DNA of 64,000 bases from Escherichia coli (GTDB lineage Bacteria > Pseudomonadota > Gammaproteobacteria > Enterobacterales > Enterobacteriaceae), in assembly GCF_050320075.1 (NCBI RefSeq), contig NZ_CP190019.1, one strand, 5' to 3'. Made by a program: the position numbers. This document shows, piece after piece, positions 6,001 through 12,000 of this stretch. Every line of letters begins with the position of its first letter. Position 1 is the stretch's first letter.

Positions 6001-9000
6001 GAGCCCGGATGGATTGCCGGTGAAGTAACGTTGCAGCACCGCAATACAGTGATTGTAGGTATCGAGATCATATTCCCAGTTTCCCAGCTCACCGGCCGCA
6101 TCCAGCTCCCGGCGAAACTGCTCGTATTTACGGAGCAGAATGCCAAGACCTAATTCTGTTGCAGCATAAACATTATTTTCTCCTGGCGCGGAAATCGCAT
6201 TACGGATTTTTTCAAAAGCATAACTGAAATCATTTCTCTCATTGAATGCAGTAAACATGTCCTTTCCTCAGTTGAATAGTTAGCCGTGCAATTTTACCAC
6301 ACCTCAATCATCGCCAGATGAGTGCCACTCTGTTGAGAACAGTGACTTTCACAAAAAATGAATTTCACATACTGAAATAATAAGTAGCCATATAGAAACG
6401 CAGTTAAATTACCGGAGAGCCGTTTCCGTCAGATCCGACTTTCCGGAATATCACAACTTTCCGGAAGTGTACCACGCTGAGAAAATAATCATATCGCTGT
6501 TTTCCGCCCCTGCGCGGCGCATCACAGGTCAGGGAGATGACACAACATATAGTGTCATGAGCAGCTGAATGAGATACCACATGTTGTGCTGACAGGAGGT
6601 GGCGTTGTGTGGGGGGAGAGGAAGATCCGTAACCAGGAGTTTTCGGATCTTCCTGAAGAAAAAGAAAGATTAATGTAAAATTAACAATAATTAACAGCCA
6701 TTGATAACTAAAACAGATTAATGCACATTAAGCATTAATCTGTTTTTATTTTTGTATTTAAGGCAATTAAAACACCGTATCAATGATGCTCAGTCATAAA
6801 ACTCAACATCACGGACATAGCGTACGGGAGTAATAACAATTTTGTGTTCATCACGCCCTGACCCCATTTTTGGCGGCTGAATAAATCCAAGATTGCTGAT
6901 TAATTCGGCCACTTCCCACAAATCCACGGAGTGAGGGATTTTCCTGAACCTGTCATGTGGTAACAGTCCATGATAGCTCTCATCAGCAAAACTGTTCAGC
7001 ACCACGCAAAGCGCGTCTTTGCCAGCATCCCCGGCAACCAGACAACGTTTAAGCAGTGTCAGGCGCAGATCATCGTCACCCATCCAGGGACTCAGTTCTG
7101 CCAGAATATCTAATGACAGCAGGTAGCTCTTATCAAGAATTCCCGGTTTGTTATCACGCAACCAGCGTAAAGCGGCAACTTTTATATTCATACCGATTAG
7201 CTTGTGACGAAAAAGTTCGCTTGCCAGTTCTTCATCAAAGTCACCCTCGATATAAAAAATATCTTCTGGCTCCTGGGTAATAATCTCAGGACGCTGGGCA
7301 ATAAGGTTACCAAGCAGAGTATTCATCCTGTTAATATCATCAACATTTCCACAGAGAGCATTAAACAACACCGTAAAGACATTAACTGTCGGTGCCAGTT
7401 TTTTCTCTGAACATAACAGTTCAGCATTTCGCAATGGAATGTTTTCAGGCACATCGATAATAACAACGTTTAAATTACTCAGTACTTTCAGTAAAGCTTC
7501 TTCTGAAATGACTGGCGAGCAAATTAATTCAGAAATAAAATTATTAAATATTCCTGTATCATTTATGACTATATCAGATGGTTCAAATTCAAAGTGTTTC
7601 TCATTTACCCACTGAACAAGTTCACCGGAAGTATTAATTGATGTATCATGCAATAAATGAATAATATTATCAAAGGATGGAAAAATCCTGTCATGCTGCA
7701 ACAGCATGCTATAGATATTTCTCCCTGAAGCATTATTGTCCGCACACTCTGAACGATTAATAATATCATCCAGATTATTTATACAAAAATCCATTTTGGC
7801 TATAATCTGTTCAACAACAGTCATTGAGACTTCAGAAGAATTCAGCAATTCAGGAATACGATCAATCTCTTCCGATTCAATAAATACCGATAAAATAAAA
7901 TCTTCTATGTTAGTCCACAGAACTTCTGTTAATTCAGAAATAGCCAGGGACTCGAGACAATGAAACGGATAAAGAGAGAATGACATTCTTTCTTCATTCT
8001 TGTCTTGCGTCAGGCAAAGATAAACATTTTTAAGATTACTGACGGAATATTTGAATAATCCTGCACCCGCAATTTTCCTGATAACAGAACACTTCTCGTC
8101 TCCCACATCACCTGGAATATATGAAACTGAAAGTGTATTATCTTTCAACACTTCAAAAAACGCATCACCATATCCTTTTGGCACAGCAGTAATAAGAATT
8201 GGGGAGGAATCTATAAGTTCACCGATACGTTTATTAATCTCAACCGATTGCCAGATATTTGATTTTTCAGTCAGGCATAACAGGTGTGCCGCTATTTCCT
8301 GAACAAAAAACTTTTGCTCGGGTGTGCGTTCTTCTGACGCACATAAATGTGCCAGCAATCTGTTCAGTATATGTTCATCTGACATAAAAATCTCCAGGTA
8401 ACGCAGGCGAACATACGTTGTGAAATCGTTCTGCATCAACATCAGCAAACTAACCACACGCTGGCTACCCGTCTGACTCAGTAATGCCATTATATTGTTT
8501 TTCAGGGTATCAGGGTCATTATCAATCAGCCATCTGATAACAGCAGGATGTTGAGCATTGTCACGCTGCAGAACCCCCAGCTTTTTGAGTCGTTCAACAA
8601 TATTATTAACGTTATCAAGATGGAATGAGAATGTTTTTTCCGGACCTTTACCAGACATAACATCCTTAAGAAATAAATTATCTGTCTCACTCAGCCCTCC
8701 GGGAATGAAGATTGAGCGATAGGACATGTAATCTGTTGATAAATAACCACTTGATAACAGAAAAAATATAAAGTCAATCTGTTCATGTTCCGACTGAATC
8801 GTCAGGACACCTGTATCCTCTTTCTTCTTTATCCAGGCAACAAAGCCTTCATTTGTCATCTTTTCTGCTATATCAGCTACAGTTCCGGAAAGAATTTCGG
8901 TCCTCAATGACTCCAGACTGGAAATATTATTTTTCACTCTGGTTATATTATCAACAGATTTAGTTTCAATTAAATGGCATCGTTTTTCATACTGCTGCTT

Positions 9001-12000
9001 CAGTTTTTCTGTATCCCGCTGATTTATCATGAGAAAAATTTGTCTGTTATAGGGGGTAACGACCTGAATATTTTCCTTATCTAAAAGCATGAGAAATTCA
9101 TCTTCATCTTGTATCAAATCATCAAGACTTATTTGCCTTCCTTCTGTATAAAAAACAAGCGCGCCGCTATAATTTTTACTAAGGTAAGGCATGAGCAGTT
9201 CTTCGCGCAGATTTTCCCGGTTTGCGAGTTTTTCATTTGTTATCGCTACAAGTGACTGTGCCATATCCTCAAGTTCGTTATTTGCAGAATGTAATAATTC
9301 ATTCTGAATTTCATGGTCTAAGTAGCTTTGAATAAAATGATAAAGAACACCTTTTTTACTATCTATACCATGATAATCTTCCGCACAGAGATTTTTATAT
9401 GCTATCATGGCAAGTAGTTTGGCCAGATTTTCCCGACTATTGACTAAATTCTGATAGAGTCGAAACTCATTTGTAATATTATGCATTACACGCATATTGG
9501 GAATAAATGTCGCAATACGAGAAATACATTCGCTTAAGTTATTATTTATCTCTTCTTCTTTGAATTTTTTAACAAAATGCTCATAAGCATTCTGGTTATC
9601 CATCACTGGAATAACAGGCATAACAAAATCAAAGAATTTCGTTCTTGACTCTGCTGAGTTGAAAATACCATCTCTGACAGCATAAATAAATTTTACAGGT
9701 TTTCTGTCAGAAAGGCAGTTATTAATAATTTGATTGATTTCCCGCAATTTCACGAAAATCCGGCCATTGTTAAAACGGTCAAGATCTTCGAATATCACTA
9801 CATCATATTTAGTCGAATCAAAAAAATAGACAATTTCATCAATATAGACATTAAGTAAAGAAGGTGATGATGCCCGGGTTGTAACAGCGCCTTTCAGAAG
9901 GTCCACTTTATCAAGACTTACTTTCCTGTCAAATATACCGATACGATGTAACTGGTTCAAAAGCAGGCATAACGATCCCATCACAGATGCCACTGCACCG
10001 GACACACGCACCCCAAACGGGCATTCAAGAAGGTAACGGGCGAATGCTCCCGGCAAAGATAGCTTTGTTGTAACGTAATCCGGCGCAAGGAAAAATAAAG
10101 CAGCTCCACTCAGTAAAATGGTTCCTGTCAGAAAAGACGCAGACCGCAATATTTGTCCCGCAGTCACATCTGATATACGGTCAATGCGGGAACAGGGAAG
10201 CTCATGCTTTTTATTTTTGTAGAGTATTTGTTGCAGAATACTGTATTCAATAGATTTTTCAACACTACCAGTATTTTTCGTCCCTTCGTCACTACTGCTG
10301 TCCCCATTACTTTCATCCACATGTCTCTGCATATCAAAATCAGCAAGAGAAACGGTTAACACCCGCAGTGTCCCATTGTGAGCTTTGCACCATGTTTTTA
10401 ATACTGAGCTTTTCCCTGCCCCATACGGCCCGGTAACAGCAATATTCCGGATATCCGGATGTTCATAAGCATAATTAAGCGCGCTGATATAACAGCCTGC
10501 TTTATCTGAGTCGAGTTCTGTCGGAGTCAGTGCTTCATAGCTCACTGCATTTGCCTCAGCATGATCACTATCGGCAACGATCGGTGTCAGCCACGGTGTG
10601 GACATTATCATTGATACAATTCCGTTGTTGTTTTAGTTACATTTTACTGGTTTTATTCCGCTTTTATCTCAAGCATGGATCTCTGAATTTCTTAACTTAA
10701 CCAGACGAGAAGAAAGCAGGCAAAGGCAACCGTACTTACCTGAAGAGACGACTGTGATAGCATAAATCGATTTTTAAGACGATAATTTTCCTCTTACCGT
10801 ACGTTTTCGTACGGTTGGCCCTCAAACCCCTATCAGGCCTGCCGTGGAGATTTTGTGGTGCGTCTCGACGGCAGCACCTGTCTGCAGTTATGGAATAAAG
10901 AAGGCAGAGTGGTACGCCGGGAGGGCGATCCGCTGGAAGTGGCGCAGTGGCTGCAGGCCTGTCATGATGCCGGAATAGAAGTTCGTGTACAGGTTAATGA
11001 AAGCGTCACTCCGTAAAAACATGCCAGCACGGTTTACACATCATCCCATGATGGCAGCCGCTTAACTTTCCTGCGCCACCAGTGGAAAGAGGCCATGAGC
11101 AGTCCGAACAAAAAACCCCCCGTGATACTTATAATAATGGCCTCACCTGCCACCATTCCTGACGGCCCCCAGTAGATAAACCACATTGCACATCCCCAGG
11201 AAATGCCCCATAAGCCCCCCGTCAGCACCGTGACCTGCCAGAACGGCATAAAGGGTAATGGCGGAAGCCGGATACCCAGCCGCCAGAGAATACGCAGAAG
11301 AGGAGGGGCATAATTGCTCCGCCACATCTTTTTGCTGTCCATCAGGGCAATGGCCCGGGCTTTTTTCTGCTCAAAGGTCACAGGAGCACCTCCGTTCCAT
11401 GATGTAAACGTGACACAGCTTATTGTTATTGATTATTATTATCATGCTGTGATTATGTTGTCATGCACCGGTACACTGACAAAAGAAAGGGAGAACAGGA
11501 GGCCGGCTGATGAACAGGAAATATTATCTTAATCCGCGTAAGCGGGCCGTGAGGGCCGCTTACAAGCGTGTATGAGATCAGTTTGGATATTCGAAATTAT
11601 TGTACGTTTAACGCACCATACATTAATGCTAATGTATGCATACATTAGCATTAATGATGAAGGAAAAGAATAACAATGGCAGTCAACCCACTTCTTTTTT
11701 GGATTTCTTAATTTTCGTCTGATAAAGCCGCTTTACCCGTTCAATTTCTGCCAGCGTTGCGGACCAGTGTAGTTCGGCGGCATGACGATATCTGGCAGCC
11801 ATTTTTTCCACCATCTCCGGATTGCTGTCCGCGCTGCGGTGCTGACGCCCCTTCTCCCCAAAAACTTCAACAACCAGCCACTGGCTTCCGGTTCTGCCGA
11901 ACAATGCCTTGCACAAACGTCTCACAGTCAGCGGGGTTAAATCTGGATCGGGATCATAGGCAATGGTAGCAAAAATAAAGCGCAGCATTTCTGATGTCTT

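What the first reader, a model, noticed from the sequence alone, without database searches (positions are those of the whole stretch)
6790..10611. 1273-aa KAP-family P-loop NTPase of unknown function as a standalone gene
The ORF has Walker A (GPYGAGKSS) and Walker B (VVIFEDLD) motifs with hydrophobic helices inserted inside the NTPase domain, plus a long C-terminal region with no recognisable motif. It has its own upstream region with a palindrome (ccgtacgttttcgtacgg, about 10798-10815) and a downstream hairpin. Large membrane-associated NTPases on plasmids are candidates for phage defence or conjugation exclusion, but nothing in the sequence assigns a function.
Basis: partly seen in the sequence, partly recalled or inferred. 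Interest (0 to 1): 0.65.

Follow-up and report, generated by a model that had tools for sequence, protein, structure and literature searches.

The report
Tmn anti-phage membrane ATPase gene
This gene is Tmn, a single-gene phage-defence membrane ATPase that is already named, annotated and experimentally studied and that many E. coli plasmids carry in identical form, so the finding is real but not new.

Summary
It is not of unknown function. It matches the PADLOC Tmn model end to end (2057 bits) and Pfam YobI-ATPase (E=2e-104). Its DNA is 100% identical to genes that RefSeq annotates as "anti-phage transmembrane ATPase" (WP_064055658.1) on many IncF/ColV plasmids. It occurs in 137 of 5,426 complete E. 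coli genomes.

Papers cited here credit Gao et al. 2020 with the discovery. The allele from E. coli ECOR25 has been studied by mutagenesis and low-resolution cryo-EM. A 2026 preprint reports that it senses phage T2 RIIB, burns ATP, exports Mg2+ and causes plasmolysis. All 15 residues mutated in that work are the same amino acid at the same position here. The best available proxy for the ECOR25 allele differs from the window protein at 5 residues.

- Domain searches place the protein in the YobI family, not Pfam KAP_NTPase.
- The upstream "palindrome" lies inside a 38-bp Tn3-family terminal inverted repeat that marks the edge of a low-GC 4.2-kb insert. It is probably not a tmn operator.

Verdict: already known, low interest.

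The parts
6790..10611 (-). tmn coding sequence, 1273 aa plus stop codon (protein WP_064055658.1)
   Evidence: ORF list. PADLOC Tmn PDLC02220 matches 1-1273 of 1273, 2057 bits. Identical DNA is annotated 'anti-phage transmembrane ATPase'.
9340..10491 (-). [quoted passage not shown]
   Evidence: Pfam PF20693, E=2e-104, model positions 1-363 of 363.
10405..10431 (-). Walker A motif GPYGAGKSS, residues 61-69. G66 and K67 are essential in the ECOR25 allele.
   Evidence: G66A/K67A abolishes defence (PMC13001434).
9955..10143 (-). Two hydrophobic (transmembrane) segments, about residues 157-177 and 199-219, inserted between Walker A and Walker B
   Evidence: Kyte-Doolittle 19-residue window, peaks >=1.6. 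This is the family signature described in PMC13001434.
9778..9801 (-). Walker B motif VVIFEDLD, residues 271-278. D276 and R279 are essential in the ECOR25 allele.
   Evidence: Mutagenesis in PMC13001434.
6793..9339 (-). C-terminal region, residues 425-1273. In the ECOR25 allele these are the proximal and distal cytosolic arms that act as the sensor. No Pfam domain.
   Evidence: No Pfam hit for residues 601-1273. Arm and alpha-solenoid description from PMC13001434. F506, Y541, R544 and L867 are conserved here. The 5 differences from the L012 allele all lie here.
6710..6746 (-). Perfect 15-bp hairpin with A-run and T-run flanks, 44 nt after the stop codon. Probably the intrinsic terminator of tmn. 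It lies inside the tmn-specific insert.
   Evidence: RNA fold z=-5.2. The insert boundary at about 6651 lies outside it.
10612..10764 (-). tmn-specific upstream region, 153 nt. The promoter was not identified.
   Evidence: No consensus sigma-70 site in this stretch. Homology with tmn-less plasmids stops at 10765.
10793..10830 (-). 38-bp Tn3-family terminal inverted repeat GGGGTTTGAGGGCCAACCGTACGAAAACGTACGGTAAG. Its outer GGGG end is the insert/backbone junction.
   Evidence: The inverted-repeat pattern hits only this site and two canonical Tn3 ends in the window, with 0 expected. By my count it is 33 of 38 identical to the published Tn6454 repeat. The junction is at 10830/10831.
10765..10830 (-). 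66-nt transposon-end segment (inverted repeat plus 28 nt) shared with about 600 plasmids that lack tmn
   Evidence: Alignment with L007-L010.
6652..10830 (.). Whole low-GC insert (about 4.18 kb, GC 0.38 against about 0.51 in the flanks), carrying tmn as its only gene
   Evidence: blastn junctions against IncI plasmids L003-L005. GC values.
10831..11016 (+). Pseudogene remnant: the C-terminal end of a 196-aa backbone gene that the insert truncated
   Evidence: PGAP note 'incomplete, missing N-terminus'. The intact 85-aa + 196-aa pair is present in L003 and L005.

Best explanation
The gene is tmn, a single-gene anti-phage defence system. It belongs to the plasmid-enriched enterobacterial group that the 2026 preprint calls clade Ib.

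Shown here: the protein is a full-length member of the Tmn/YobI family. Its NTPase domain is anchored in the membrane by two helices inserted between Walker A and Walker B. It matches the characterised ECOR25 allele at every residue that has been tested by mutagenesis.

Taken from published work on the ECOR25 allele, and not tested here:
1. Tmn forms a membrane decamer with long cytosolic alpha-helical arms.
2. The arms bind a phage protein. For phage T2 this is RIIB, and residue D219 of RIIB is decisive.
3. Binding switches on ATP hydrolysis and selective Mg2+ export.
4. The cytoplasm shrinks (plasmolysis) and phage development stops, without membrane depolarisation.
5. The resulting ATP drop can also switch on the ATP-sensing systems Gabija and Septu I.

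Inferred here: the gene reached this plasmid as cargo of a Tn3-family element. Only one end of that element survives, at 10793-10830. The insert replaced part of a backbone gene pair, and tmn ends in its own terminator hairpin.
For: Identity:
- PADLOC Tmn matches 1-1273 of 1273, 2057 bits.
- Pfam YobI-ATPase, E=2e-104.
- 100% identical DNA is annotated 'anti-phage transmembrane ATPase' (WP_064055658.1) on many plasmids.
- Present in 137 of 5,426 complete E. coli genomes; 138 of 141 places are on plasmids.

Link to the characterised allele:
- All 15 residues mutated in Tmn-25 are the same amino acid at the same position here.
- The ECOR25 cloning primers map to the same flanks, at 10837-10854 and 6458-6477.
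- L012, an allele that matches the forward primer exactly, differs from the window protein at 5 of 1273 residues.

Function and mechanism: PMC13001434, bioRxiv 10.1101/2022.08.21.504612 and PMC11846954.

Standalone unit:
- The insert 6652-10830 holds only tmn.
- The ECOR25 clone covered the equivalent of about 6458-10854 and was sufficient for defence.
- The preprint found no conserved operon.

Transposon end.
Against: - The mechanism comes from one preprint, with an 11.6 Å map and AlphaFold-guided fitting. It is not peer reviewed, and Mg2+ export through the complex is inferred from ion measurements.
- The window allele may not be identical to ECOR25's. Closely related clade Ib variants have different phage ranges, so the T1/T2 specificity cannot be transferred with certainty.
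- No convincing sigma-70 promoter was found upstream. The published constructs also carried a pBAD promoter, so native expression is unproven.
- No Gabija, Septu or PrrC partner is present in the window.
- Only one transposon end is present, and there is no transposase or resolvase in the insert.
Confidence: 0.88

Rival explanations
1. Tmn kills or disables the infected cell the way PifA does. PifA is the KAP NTPase of the F plasmid. In this model Tmn opens the membrane, causing depolarisation and nucleotide leakage (classical abortive infection), rather than exporting Mg2+ and causing plasmolysis.
For: It is a membrane-anchored P-loop NTPase on an F-type plasmid, like PifA. The reported decamer has a central opening of about 25 Å, wide enough for nucleotides. 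At high multiplicity of infection, cultures collapse.
Against: The preprint measured no rise in extracellular ATP, no propidium iodide entry and no DiSC3(5) depolarisation in infected Tmn cells. Some cells recovered. Pfam gives no KAP_NTPase match.
Confidence: 0.07
2. The gene's main role is in conflict between plasmids (conjugation or entry exclusion, or plasmid stabilisation), and phage defence is a side effect.
For: It is carried almost only on conjugative plasmids. It sits among colicin, toxin-antitoxin and recombinase genes.
Against: Direct phage-protection data exist for the near-identical allele, with a defined phage trigger. A phage-encoded anti-Tmn protein exists. No experiment links Tmn to conjugation. 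Related variants occur on chromosomes and in many phyla.
Confidence: 0.03
3. The palindrome at 10796-10815 is an operator through which a regulator controls tmn.
For: It is a perfect 8-bp inverted repeat about 185 nt upstream of the start codon, and such a repeat appears in only 3.5% of shuffles. It was included in the functional ECOR25 clone.
Against: It occupies positions 16-35 of a 38-bp Tn3-family terminal repeat whose outer end is the insert junction. The same 66 nt occur in about 600 plasmids without tmn, next to unrelated genes. The insert carries no regulator gene. Diverged tmn loci share only about 48 nt upstream of the ATG (hit H132).
Confidence: 0.07
4. In this plasmid the gene is a silent passenger. 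It is intact but not expressed, because the transposon that brought it was truncated and no promoter remains.
For: No consensus promoter at 10612-10830. The transposon is reduced to one end.
Against: The ORF is intact and 100% conserved across more than 100 plasmids from many hosts and countries, which argues for selection. tmn runs in the same direction as the upstream genes (DUF6404 and others), so read-through transcription is possible. Consensus scans miss many real promoters.
Confidence: 0.08

Closest known systems
Tmn (tmn; 'Gao_Tmn' in DefenseFinder from my own knowledge; PADLOC PDLC02220), especially the ECOR25 allele 'Tmn-25' of Wu et al.
   Same: - Full-length HMM match.
- Same length (1273 aa).
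- Same Walker motifs, and the same 15 experimentally probed residues.
- Same flanking DNA at the cloning primer sites.
- Same plasmid habitat.

This is the same gene family and almost certainly the same clade.
   Different: Exact identity to ECOR25 could not be verified. The best proxy allele (L012, WP_130525902.1) differs at I525N, V897I, C1087S, G1088E and S1162I, all in the sensor arms, so the phage range may differ. Wu et al. describe tmn next to Gabija in the plasmid leading region. Here it sits between a tyrosine-recombinase module and DUF6404, beside colicin genes, with no Gabija in the window.
YobI family P-loop NTPases (Pfam PF20693)
   Same: The domain matches over the whole model (1-363 of 363, E=2e-104), with two hydrophobic helices inserted inside the P-loop domain.
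   Different: None at domain level. The 850-residue C-terminal arms are not covered by any Pfam model.
KAP family P-loop NTPases (Pfam PF07693), including PifA of the F plasmid
   Same: These are also membrane-associated P-loop NTPases implicated in phage exclusion and carried on F-type plasmids. Several papers label Tmn a KAP NTPase.
   Different: There is no Pfam KAP_NTPase hit even at E<=10. The preprint treats YobI as a distinct lineage, and reports that Tmn, unlike PifA, causes no depolarisation or leakage.
Avs / bacterial STAND NTPases
   Same: They share the single-polypeptide logic: a repeat-rich sensor region recognises a phage protein and switches on an NTPase-driven response.
   Different: Tmn belongs to a different NTPase class. 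It is membrane-embedded, has no separate effector domain, and forms a decamer rather than a tetramer. Only weak nSTAND hits were found here (E>1).
Tn3-family transposon ends (Tn3 itself; Tn6454-type repeats)
   Same: The 38-bp end has GGGG at the tip, the internal ACGAAAAC motif and a terminal TAAG. Two canonical Tn3 ends in the same window fit the same pattern. By my count it is 33 of 38 identical to the published Tn6454 repeat.
   Different: Only one end is present, and the insert has no transposase or resolvase. The exact 38-mer was not found in the searchable literature.

Membership tests
Tmn defence system (PADLOC PDLC02220) | Full-length match to the Tmn profile HMM | tested here: met
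   E=0, 2057.3 bits, residues 1-1273 on profile positions 1-1273 of 1273.
Tmn / YobI family | [quoted passage not shown] | tested here: met
   Pfam PF20693, residues 41-424, model 1-363 of 363, E=2e-104.
Tmn / YobI family | [quoted passage not shown] | tested here: met
   GPYGAGKS at residues 61-68 and VVIFEDLD at 271-278.
Tmn / YobI family | Two transmembrane helices inserted inside the P-loop domain, between Walker A and Walker B | tested here: met
   The only two hydropathy peaks >=1.6 in the whole protein start at residues 157-159 and 199-200. This is hydropathy only; no dedicated topology predictor was run.
Tmn (ECOR25 allele) | Residues shown by mutagenesis to be needed for defence: G66/K67, Y262, D276/R279, N297, K325/F326, R374, F506, Y541/R544 and L867 | tested here: met
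   All are present at identical positions, as are the two neutral control residues L33 and K183.
Tmn | Alpha-helical C-terminal arms (coiled-coil proximal arm, ARM/HEAT-like distal solenoid) and decameric assembly | not tested
   No structure prediction was run, because the protein exceeds the 1200-aa limit and the verdict did not depend on it. Pfam finds nothing in residues 601-1273. The architecture is taken from PMC13001434.
Tmn | Self-contained single-gene system with no conserved partner gene | tested here: met
   The insert 6652-10830 holds only tmn. Its neighbours are backbone genes also present in plasmids without tmn. This agrees.
Tmn | Protects cells against phage; depends on the ATPase; is triggered by a phage protein | not testable with these tools
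   Experimental data exist only for the ECOR25, PLG026 and other cloned alleles.
KAP family P-loop NTPase (Pfam PF07693) | Match to the KAP_NTPase profile | tested here: not met
   KAP_NTPase is absent from the Pfam hit list even at E<=10.
Tn3-family transposon | 38-bp terminal inverted repeat of the form GGGG...ACGAAAAC...TAAG | tested here: met
   Window 10793-10830 fits a pattern that otherwise hits only the two canonical Tn3 ends in the window, with 0 expected by chance. It is close to the Tn6454 repeat.
Tn3-family transposon | A second repeat in inverted orientation, and transposase/resolvase genes between the two ends | tested here: not met
   No partner repeat in the window or in the tmn loci L001, L002, L006, L011 and L012. 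The insert encodes only tmn. It is therefore at most a one-ended remnant.
Tn3-family transposon | 5-bp target-site duplication | tested here: inconclusive
   The 5 bp outside the surviving end (TATCA, 10831-10835) has no counterpart at the left junction near 6651. With one end missing, this says little.

The most novel reading that the evidence does not exclude
The tmn insert may be the remnant of a Tn3-family element whose end carries different defence cargo in other plasmids. In NZ_CP025917.1 the same end plus 28 nt is followed by a res-like sequence, a serine recombinase and an AriA/OLD-type ATPase. These elements land in one variable slot of IncF and IncI plasmids, between a tyrosine-recombinase module and DUF6404 and the colicin genes. 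That module itself carries a swappable gene, here a PDC-S67 candidate. If so, Tn3-type elements and this slot act as an exchange point for single-gene defence systems among enterobacterial plasmids. I did not find this described for tmn.
Probability: 0.3. Interest if true: 0.3.

Novelty: already known. Interest (0 to 1): 0.1.

Why it matters
As a discovery it matters little. The gene is catalogued in PADLOC, named by NCBI's annotation pipeline, and has been studied in at least three papers.

Its practical relevance is this. A multidrug-resistance ColV-type plasmid carrying oqxAB, a class 1 integron, mph(A), rmtB, blaTEM-1 and tet(A) also carries a working phage-defence gene. That bears on phage therapy against such strains, where phage-encoded anti-Tmn proteins and escape mutations have already been explored.

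The modest new point is the gene's vehicle. Its upstream "palindrome" is a transposon end, and the gene sits in a plasmid slot that holds other defence-like cargo in other plasmids.

Tried and rejected
- NCBIfam HMMs gave no hit for the protein, although PGAP names it. The name presumably comes from another rule type.
- The PDB sequence search gave no hit.
- Pfam found nothing in the C-terminal half.
- Rfam over 5800-11500 gave only two sub-threshold chance hits.
- The promoter scan gave no convincing site upstream of tmn.
- A search for a second transposon end in the window and in fetched loci found none.
- Literature searches for the exact repeat string, and for WP_064055658, found nothing. 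A search for Tn3-family carriage of defence genes found nothing specific.
- Gao et al. 2020, Aravind et al. 2004 and the journal version of Wu et al. 2024 are not held. Statements about them rest on how the held papers cite them and on my own knowledge.
- The supplements of the 2026 preprint are not held, so the ECOR25 sequence could not be compared directly.
- I did not run the large homologue searches or structure prediction. The family assignment was already unambiguous, the protein exceeds the 1200-aa limit, and the results would not have changed the verdict.
- I considered and rejected the palindrome as a tmn operator, and conjugation exclusion as the function (see the rival explanations).

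
Full report
**1. The observation**

The ORF is there as described: 6790..10611 on the minus strand, ATG start, 1273 aa.
- Walker A (GPYGAGKSS) is at residues 61-69 and Walker B (VVIFEDLD) at residues 271-278.
- The only two strongly hydrophobic 19-residue windows in the whole protein start at residues 157-159 and 199-200. That places them between the two Walker motifs.
- The gene is low in GC (0.39) compared with its flanks (about 0.51).
- The palindrome is ACCGTACG-aaaa-CGTACGGT at 10796-10815.
- The downstream hairpin is a perfect 15-bp stem at 6710-6746, 44 nt after the stop codon. 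Its RNA fold has z=-5.2.

**2. What it is**

The protein matches the PADLOC model for Tmn from first to last residue: 2057 bits, profile positions 1-1273 of 1273. Residues 41-424 match Pfam YobI-ATPase (PF20693) over the whole model at E=2e-104. No KAP_NTPase hit appears even at E<=10. Residues 601-1273 match no Pfam family.

The DNA of 6500-11000 is 100% identical to many E. coli and Shigella plasmids, where the gene is annotated "anti-phage transmembrane ATPase", WP_064055658.1. Among 5,426 complete E. coli genomes, 137 carry it at >=99% identity, and 138 of 141 places are on plasmids.

The window itself is a ColV-type IncF multidrug-resistance plasmid. It carries colicin V, B and M genes, oqxAB, a class 1 integron, mph(A), aph(3')-Ia, aac(3)-IId, blaTEM-1, rmtB and tet(A).

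**3. What is known about it**

According to the papers I could read, tmn was first reported as a defence gene by Gao et al. 2020 (cited). I could not open that paper.

Wu et al. cloned tmn from E. coli ECOR25. They showed protection against phages such as T1, loss of function in G66A/K67A and D276A/R279A mutants, and synergy with Gabija, Septu I and PrrC.

Yamashita et al. 2025 found a phage anti-Tmn protein, and escape mutations in the phage nmad5 gene.

A March 2026 preprint (PMC13001434) makes these points:
- It places Tmn in the YobI family. Clade Ib is about 1270 aa long and enriched on enterobacterial plasmids.
- It finds no conserved operon.
- It reports a membrane decamer at 11.6 Å, fitted with AlphaFold models.
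- It identifies T2 RIIB as a direct trigger, with residue D219 decisive.
- It proposes that activation leads to ATP hydrolysis, selective Mg2+ export and plasmolysis, without depolarisation or leakage.
- It proposes that the ATP collapse then activates Gabija and Septu I.

**4. How close the window protein is to the characterised allele**

All 15 residues mutated in "Tmn-25" are the same amino acid at the same position in the window protein. They are L33, G66, K67, K183, Y262, D276, R279, N297, K325, F326, R374, F506, Y541, R544 and L867.

The ECOR25 cloning primers map to the same flanks. The forward primer anneals at 10837-10854 with one mismatch. The reverse primer anneals at 6458-6477 with a one-base indel, which is present in every locus I examined and may be a transcription slip in the supplement.

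A Salmonella IncI plasmid allele (L012, WP_130525902.1) contains the forward primer exactly. It differs from the window protein at 5 residues, all in the C-terminal arms: I525N, V897I, C1087S, G1088E and S1162I. So the window protein is either identical to Tmn-25 or within about 0.4% of it.

The preprint reports different phage ranges even among close Ib variants. The family and mechanism therefore carry over with confidence, but the exact phage range does not.

**5. The unit and the palindrome**

I compared the window with plasmids that share the backbone but lack tmn. Homology stops at about 6651 and resumes at 10831.

In IncI plasmids the corresponding interval holds an 85-aa + 196-aa gene pair. 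The window retains only the last 186 nt of the 196-aa gene, as a pseudogene at 10831-11016. The insert (6652-10830, about 4.18 kb) contains tmn as its only gene, together with the terminator hairpin.

The ECOR25 clone, equivalent to about 6458-10854, was sufficient for defence.

The last 66 nt of the insert (10765-10830) occur in about 600 plasmids that have no tmn. Read inward from the junction, they begin GGGGTTTGAGGGCCAACCGTACGAAAACGTACGGTAAG.
- A pattern built on the Tn3-type end (GGGG..TGA...ACGAAAAC..ACG.TAAG) hits only three sites in the 64-kb window, with 0 expected by chance. They are this site and two canonical Tn3 ends at 14281 and 59211, which lie next to a Tn3 transposase fragment and next to blaTEM.
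- By my count, the published repeat of the Tn3-family transposon Tn6454 is identical at 33 of 38 positions.
- In other plasmids the same end continues into a res-like sequence. In NZ_CP025917.1 it continues into a serine recombinase gene and a 608-aa ATPase that matches PADLOC AriA at 8e-58, with OLD and GajA-type hits over its C-terminal half.

It is best read as part of a transposase-binding end, not as an operator for tmn.

No second end, transposase or resolvase accompanies tmn. What remains is therefore a one-ended remnant. That tmn arrived as Tn3-family cargo is my inference.

**6. Open points**

- No consensus sigma-70 promoter was found in 10612-10830.
- tmn runs in the same direction as the upstream backbone genes, so read-through transcription is possible.
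- No Gabija, Septu or PrrC gene is present in the window, so the published synergy would need partners elsewhere in the host.
- No solved structure matches by sequence.
- Rfam finds nothing in the locus.

**7. Verdict**

The finding is a correct observation of a gene that is already known. It is a named, annotated and experimentally validated single-gene phage-defence system with a proposed mechanism.

"Function unknown" and "KAP family" need updating, and the palindrome is reinterpreted.

Novelty: already known. Interest: 0.1. The most novel reading still open is that Tn3-type elements and a variable slot in IncF and IncI plasmids shuttle single-gene defence systems. That would be of modest interest.

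Noticed in passing
window 10793-10830 (and 10765-10830): A 38-bp Tn3-family terminal inverted repeat marks the edge of the tmn insert. With 28 further nt it recurs in about 600 plasmids that lack tmn. In NZ_CP025917.1 (L007 2170-5066) it is followed by a serine recombinase and an AriA/OLD-like ATPase.
   Followed up: partly
window 5175-5864 (-), overlapping the tyrosine recombinase gene at 4387-5178 (-): The 229-aa hypothetical protein directly upstream of the integrase matches the PADLOC candidate family PDC-S67 (E=1e-17). In related IncI plasmids this position holds unrelated genes of 273 aa and 137 aa. It therefore looks like a swappable gene attached to the recombinase.
   Followed up: partly
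L003, L004 and L005 (IncI plasmids), corresponding to window 6652-10830 and its surroundings: The interval that tmn fills here holds other cargo elsewhere. L003 and L005 have an 85-aa + 196-aa pair. L004 has an added DUF3800 protein and a 163-aa protein, and next to them a 518-aa ATPase matching PADLOC HEC-04 (E=8e-42) in place of DUF6404 and colicin Ia. This suggests a variable, partly defence-related slot.
   Followed up: partly
window 6377-6670: An unannotated segment of about 290 nt just downstream of tmn is conserved (82-100% identity) in about 3,400 enterobacterial plasmids. It contains several inverted repeats (6541-6588, 6619-6654, and TTCCGGAA twice at 6441-6466). It has no Rfam match. 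It could be a recombination or other cis-acting site for the neighbouring recombinase.
   Followed up: partly
window 13176-13563: The yacB (RelE-type) toxin gene is intact, but only the last 26 codons of its antitoxin yacA remain (about 13457-13534). The rest is replaced by Tn3-family sequence. The toxin gene appears to have lost its antitoxin and native promoter.
   Followed up: partly
window 12282-13130 (-): A 282-aa DEDDh 3'-5' exonuclease (DnaQ-like) on the plasmid backbone matches the PADLOC DEDDh model (E=1e-27) and the candidate PDC-S48 models (E=7e-21). Its role is unknown.
   Followed up: no
window 40859-42172 (-) and 42970-43512 (-): A DUF3883 protein matches the PADLOC candidate PDC-S36 (E=9e-107) and, more weakly, PD-T4-1. 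It sits beside a small AAA ATPase next to aac(3)-IId, so a defence-like gene is travelling within a resistance module.
   Followed up: no
window 52418-53101 (-) and 47440-49107 (+): A type II DNA methyltransferase with no recognised restriction partner (PADLOC MTase_II, E=8e-142), and a group II intron reverse transcriptase (ltrA-like), both in the plasmid backbone part of the window.
   Followed up: no
protein 6790-10611 against NCBIfam release 20: PGAP names this protein 'anti-phage transmembrane ATPase', yet no NCBIfam HMM matches it at E<=1. The name must come from a non-HMM rule, so HMM-only annotation with NCBIfam would leave it unnamed.
   Followed up: no
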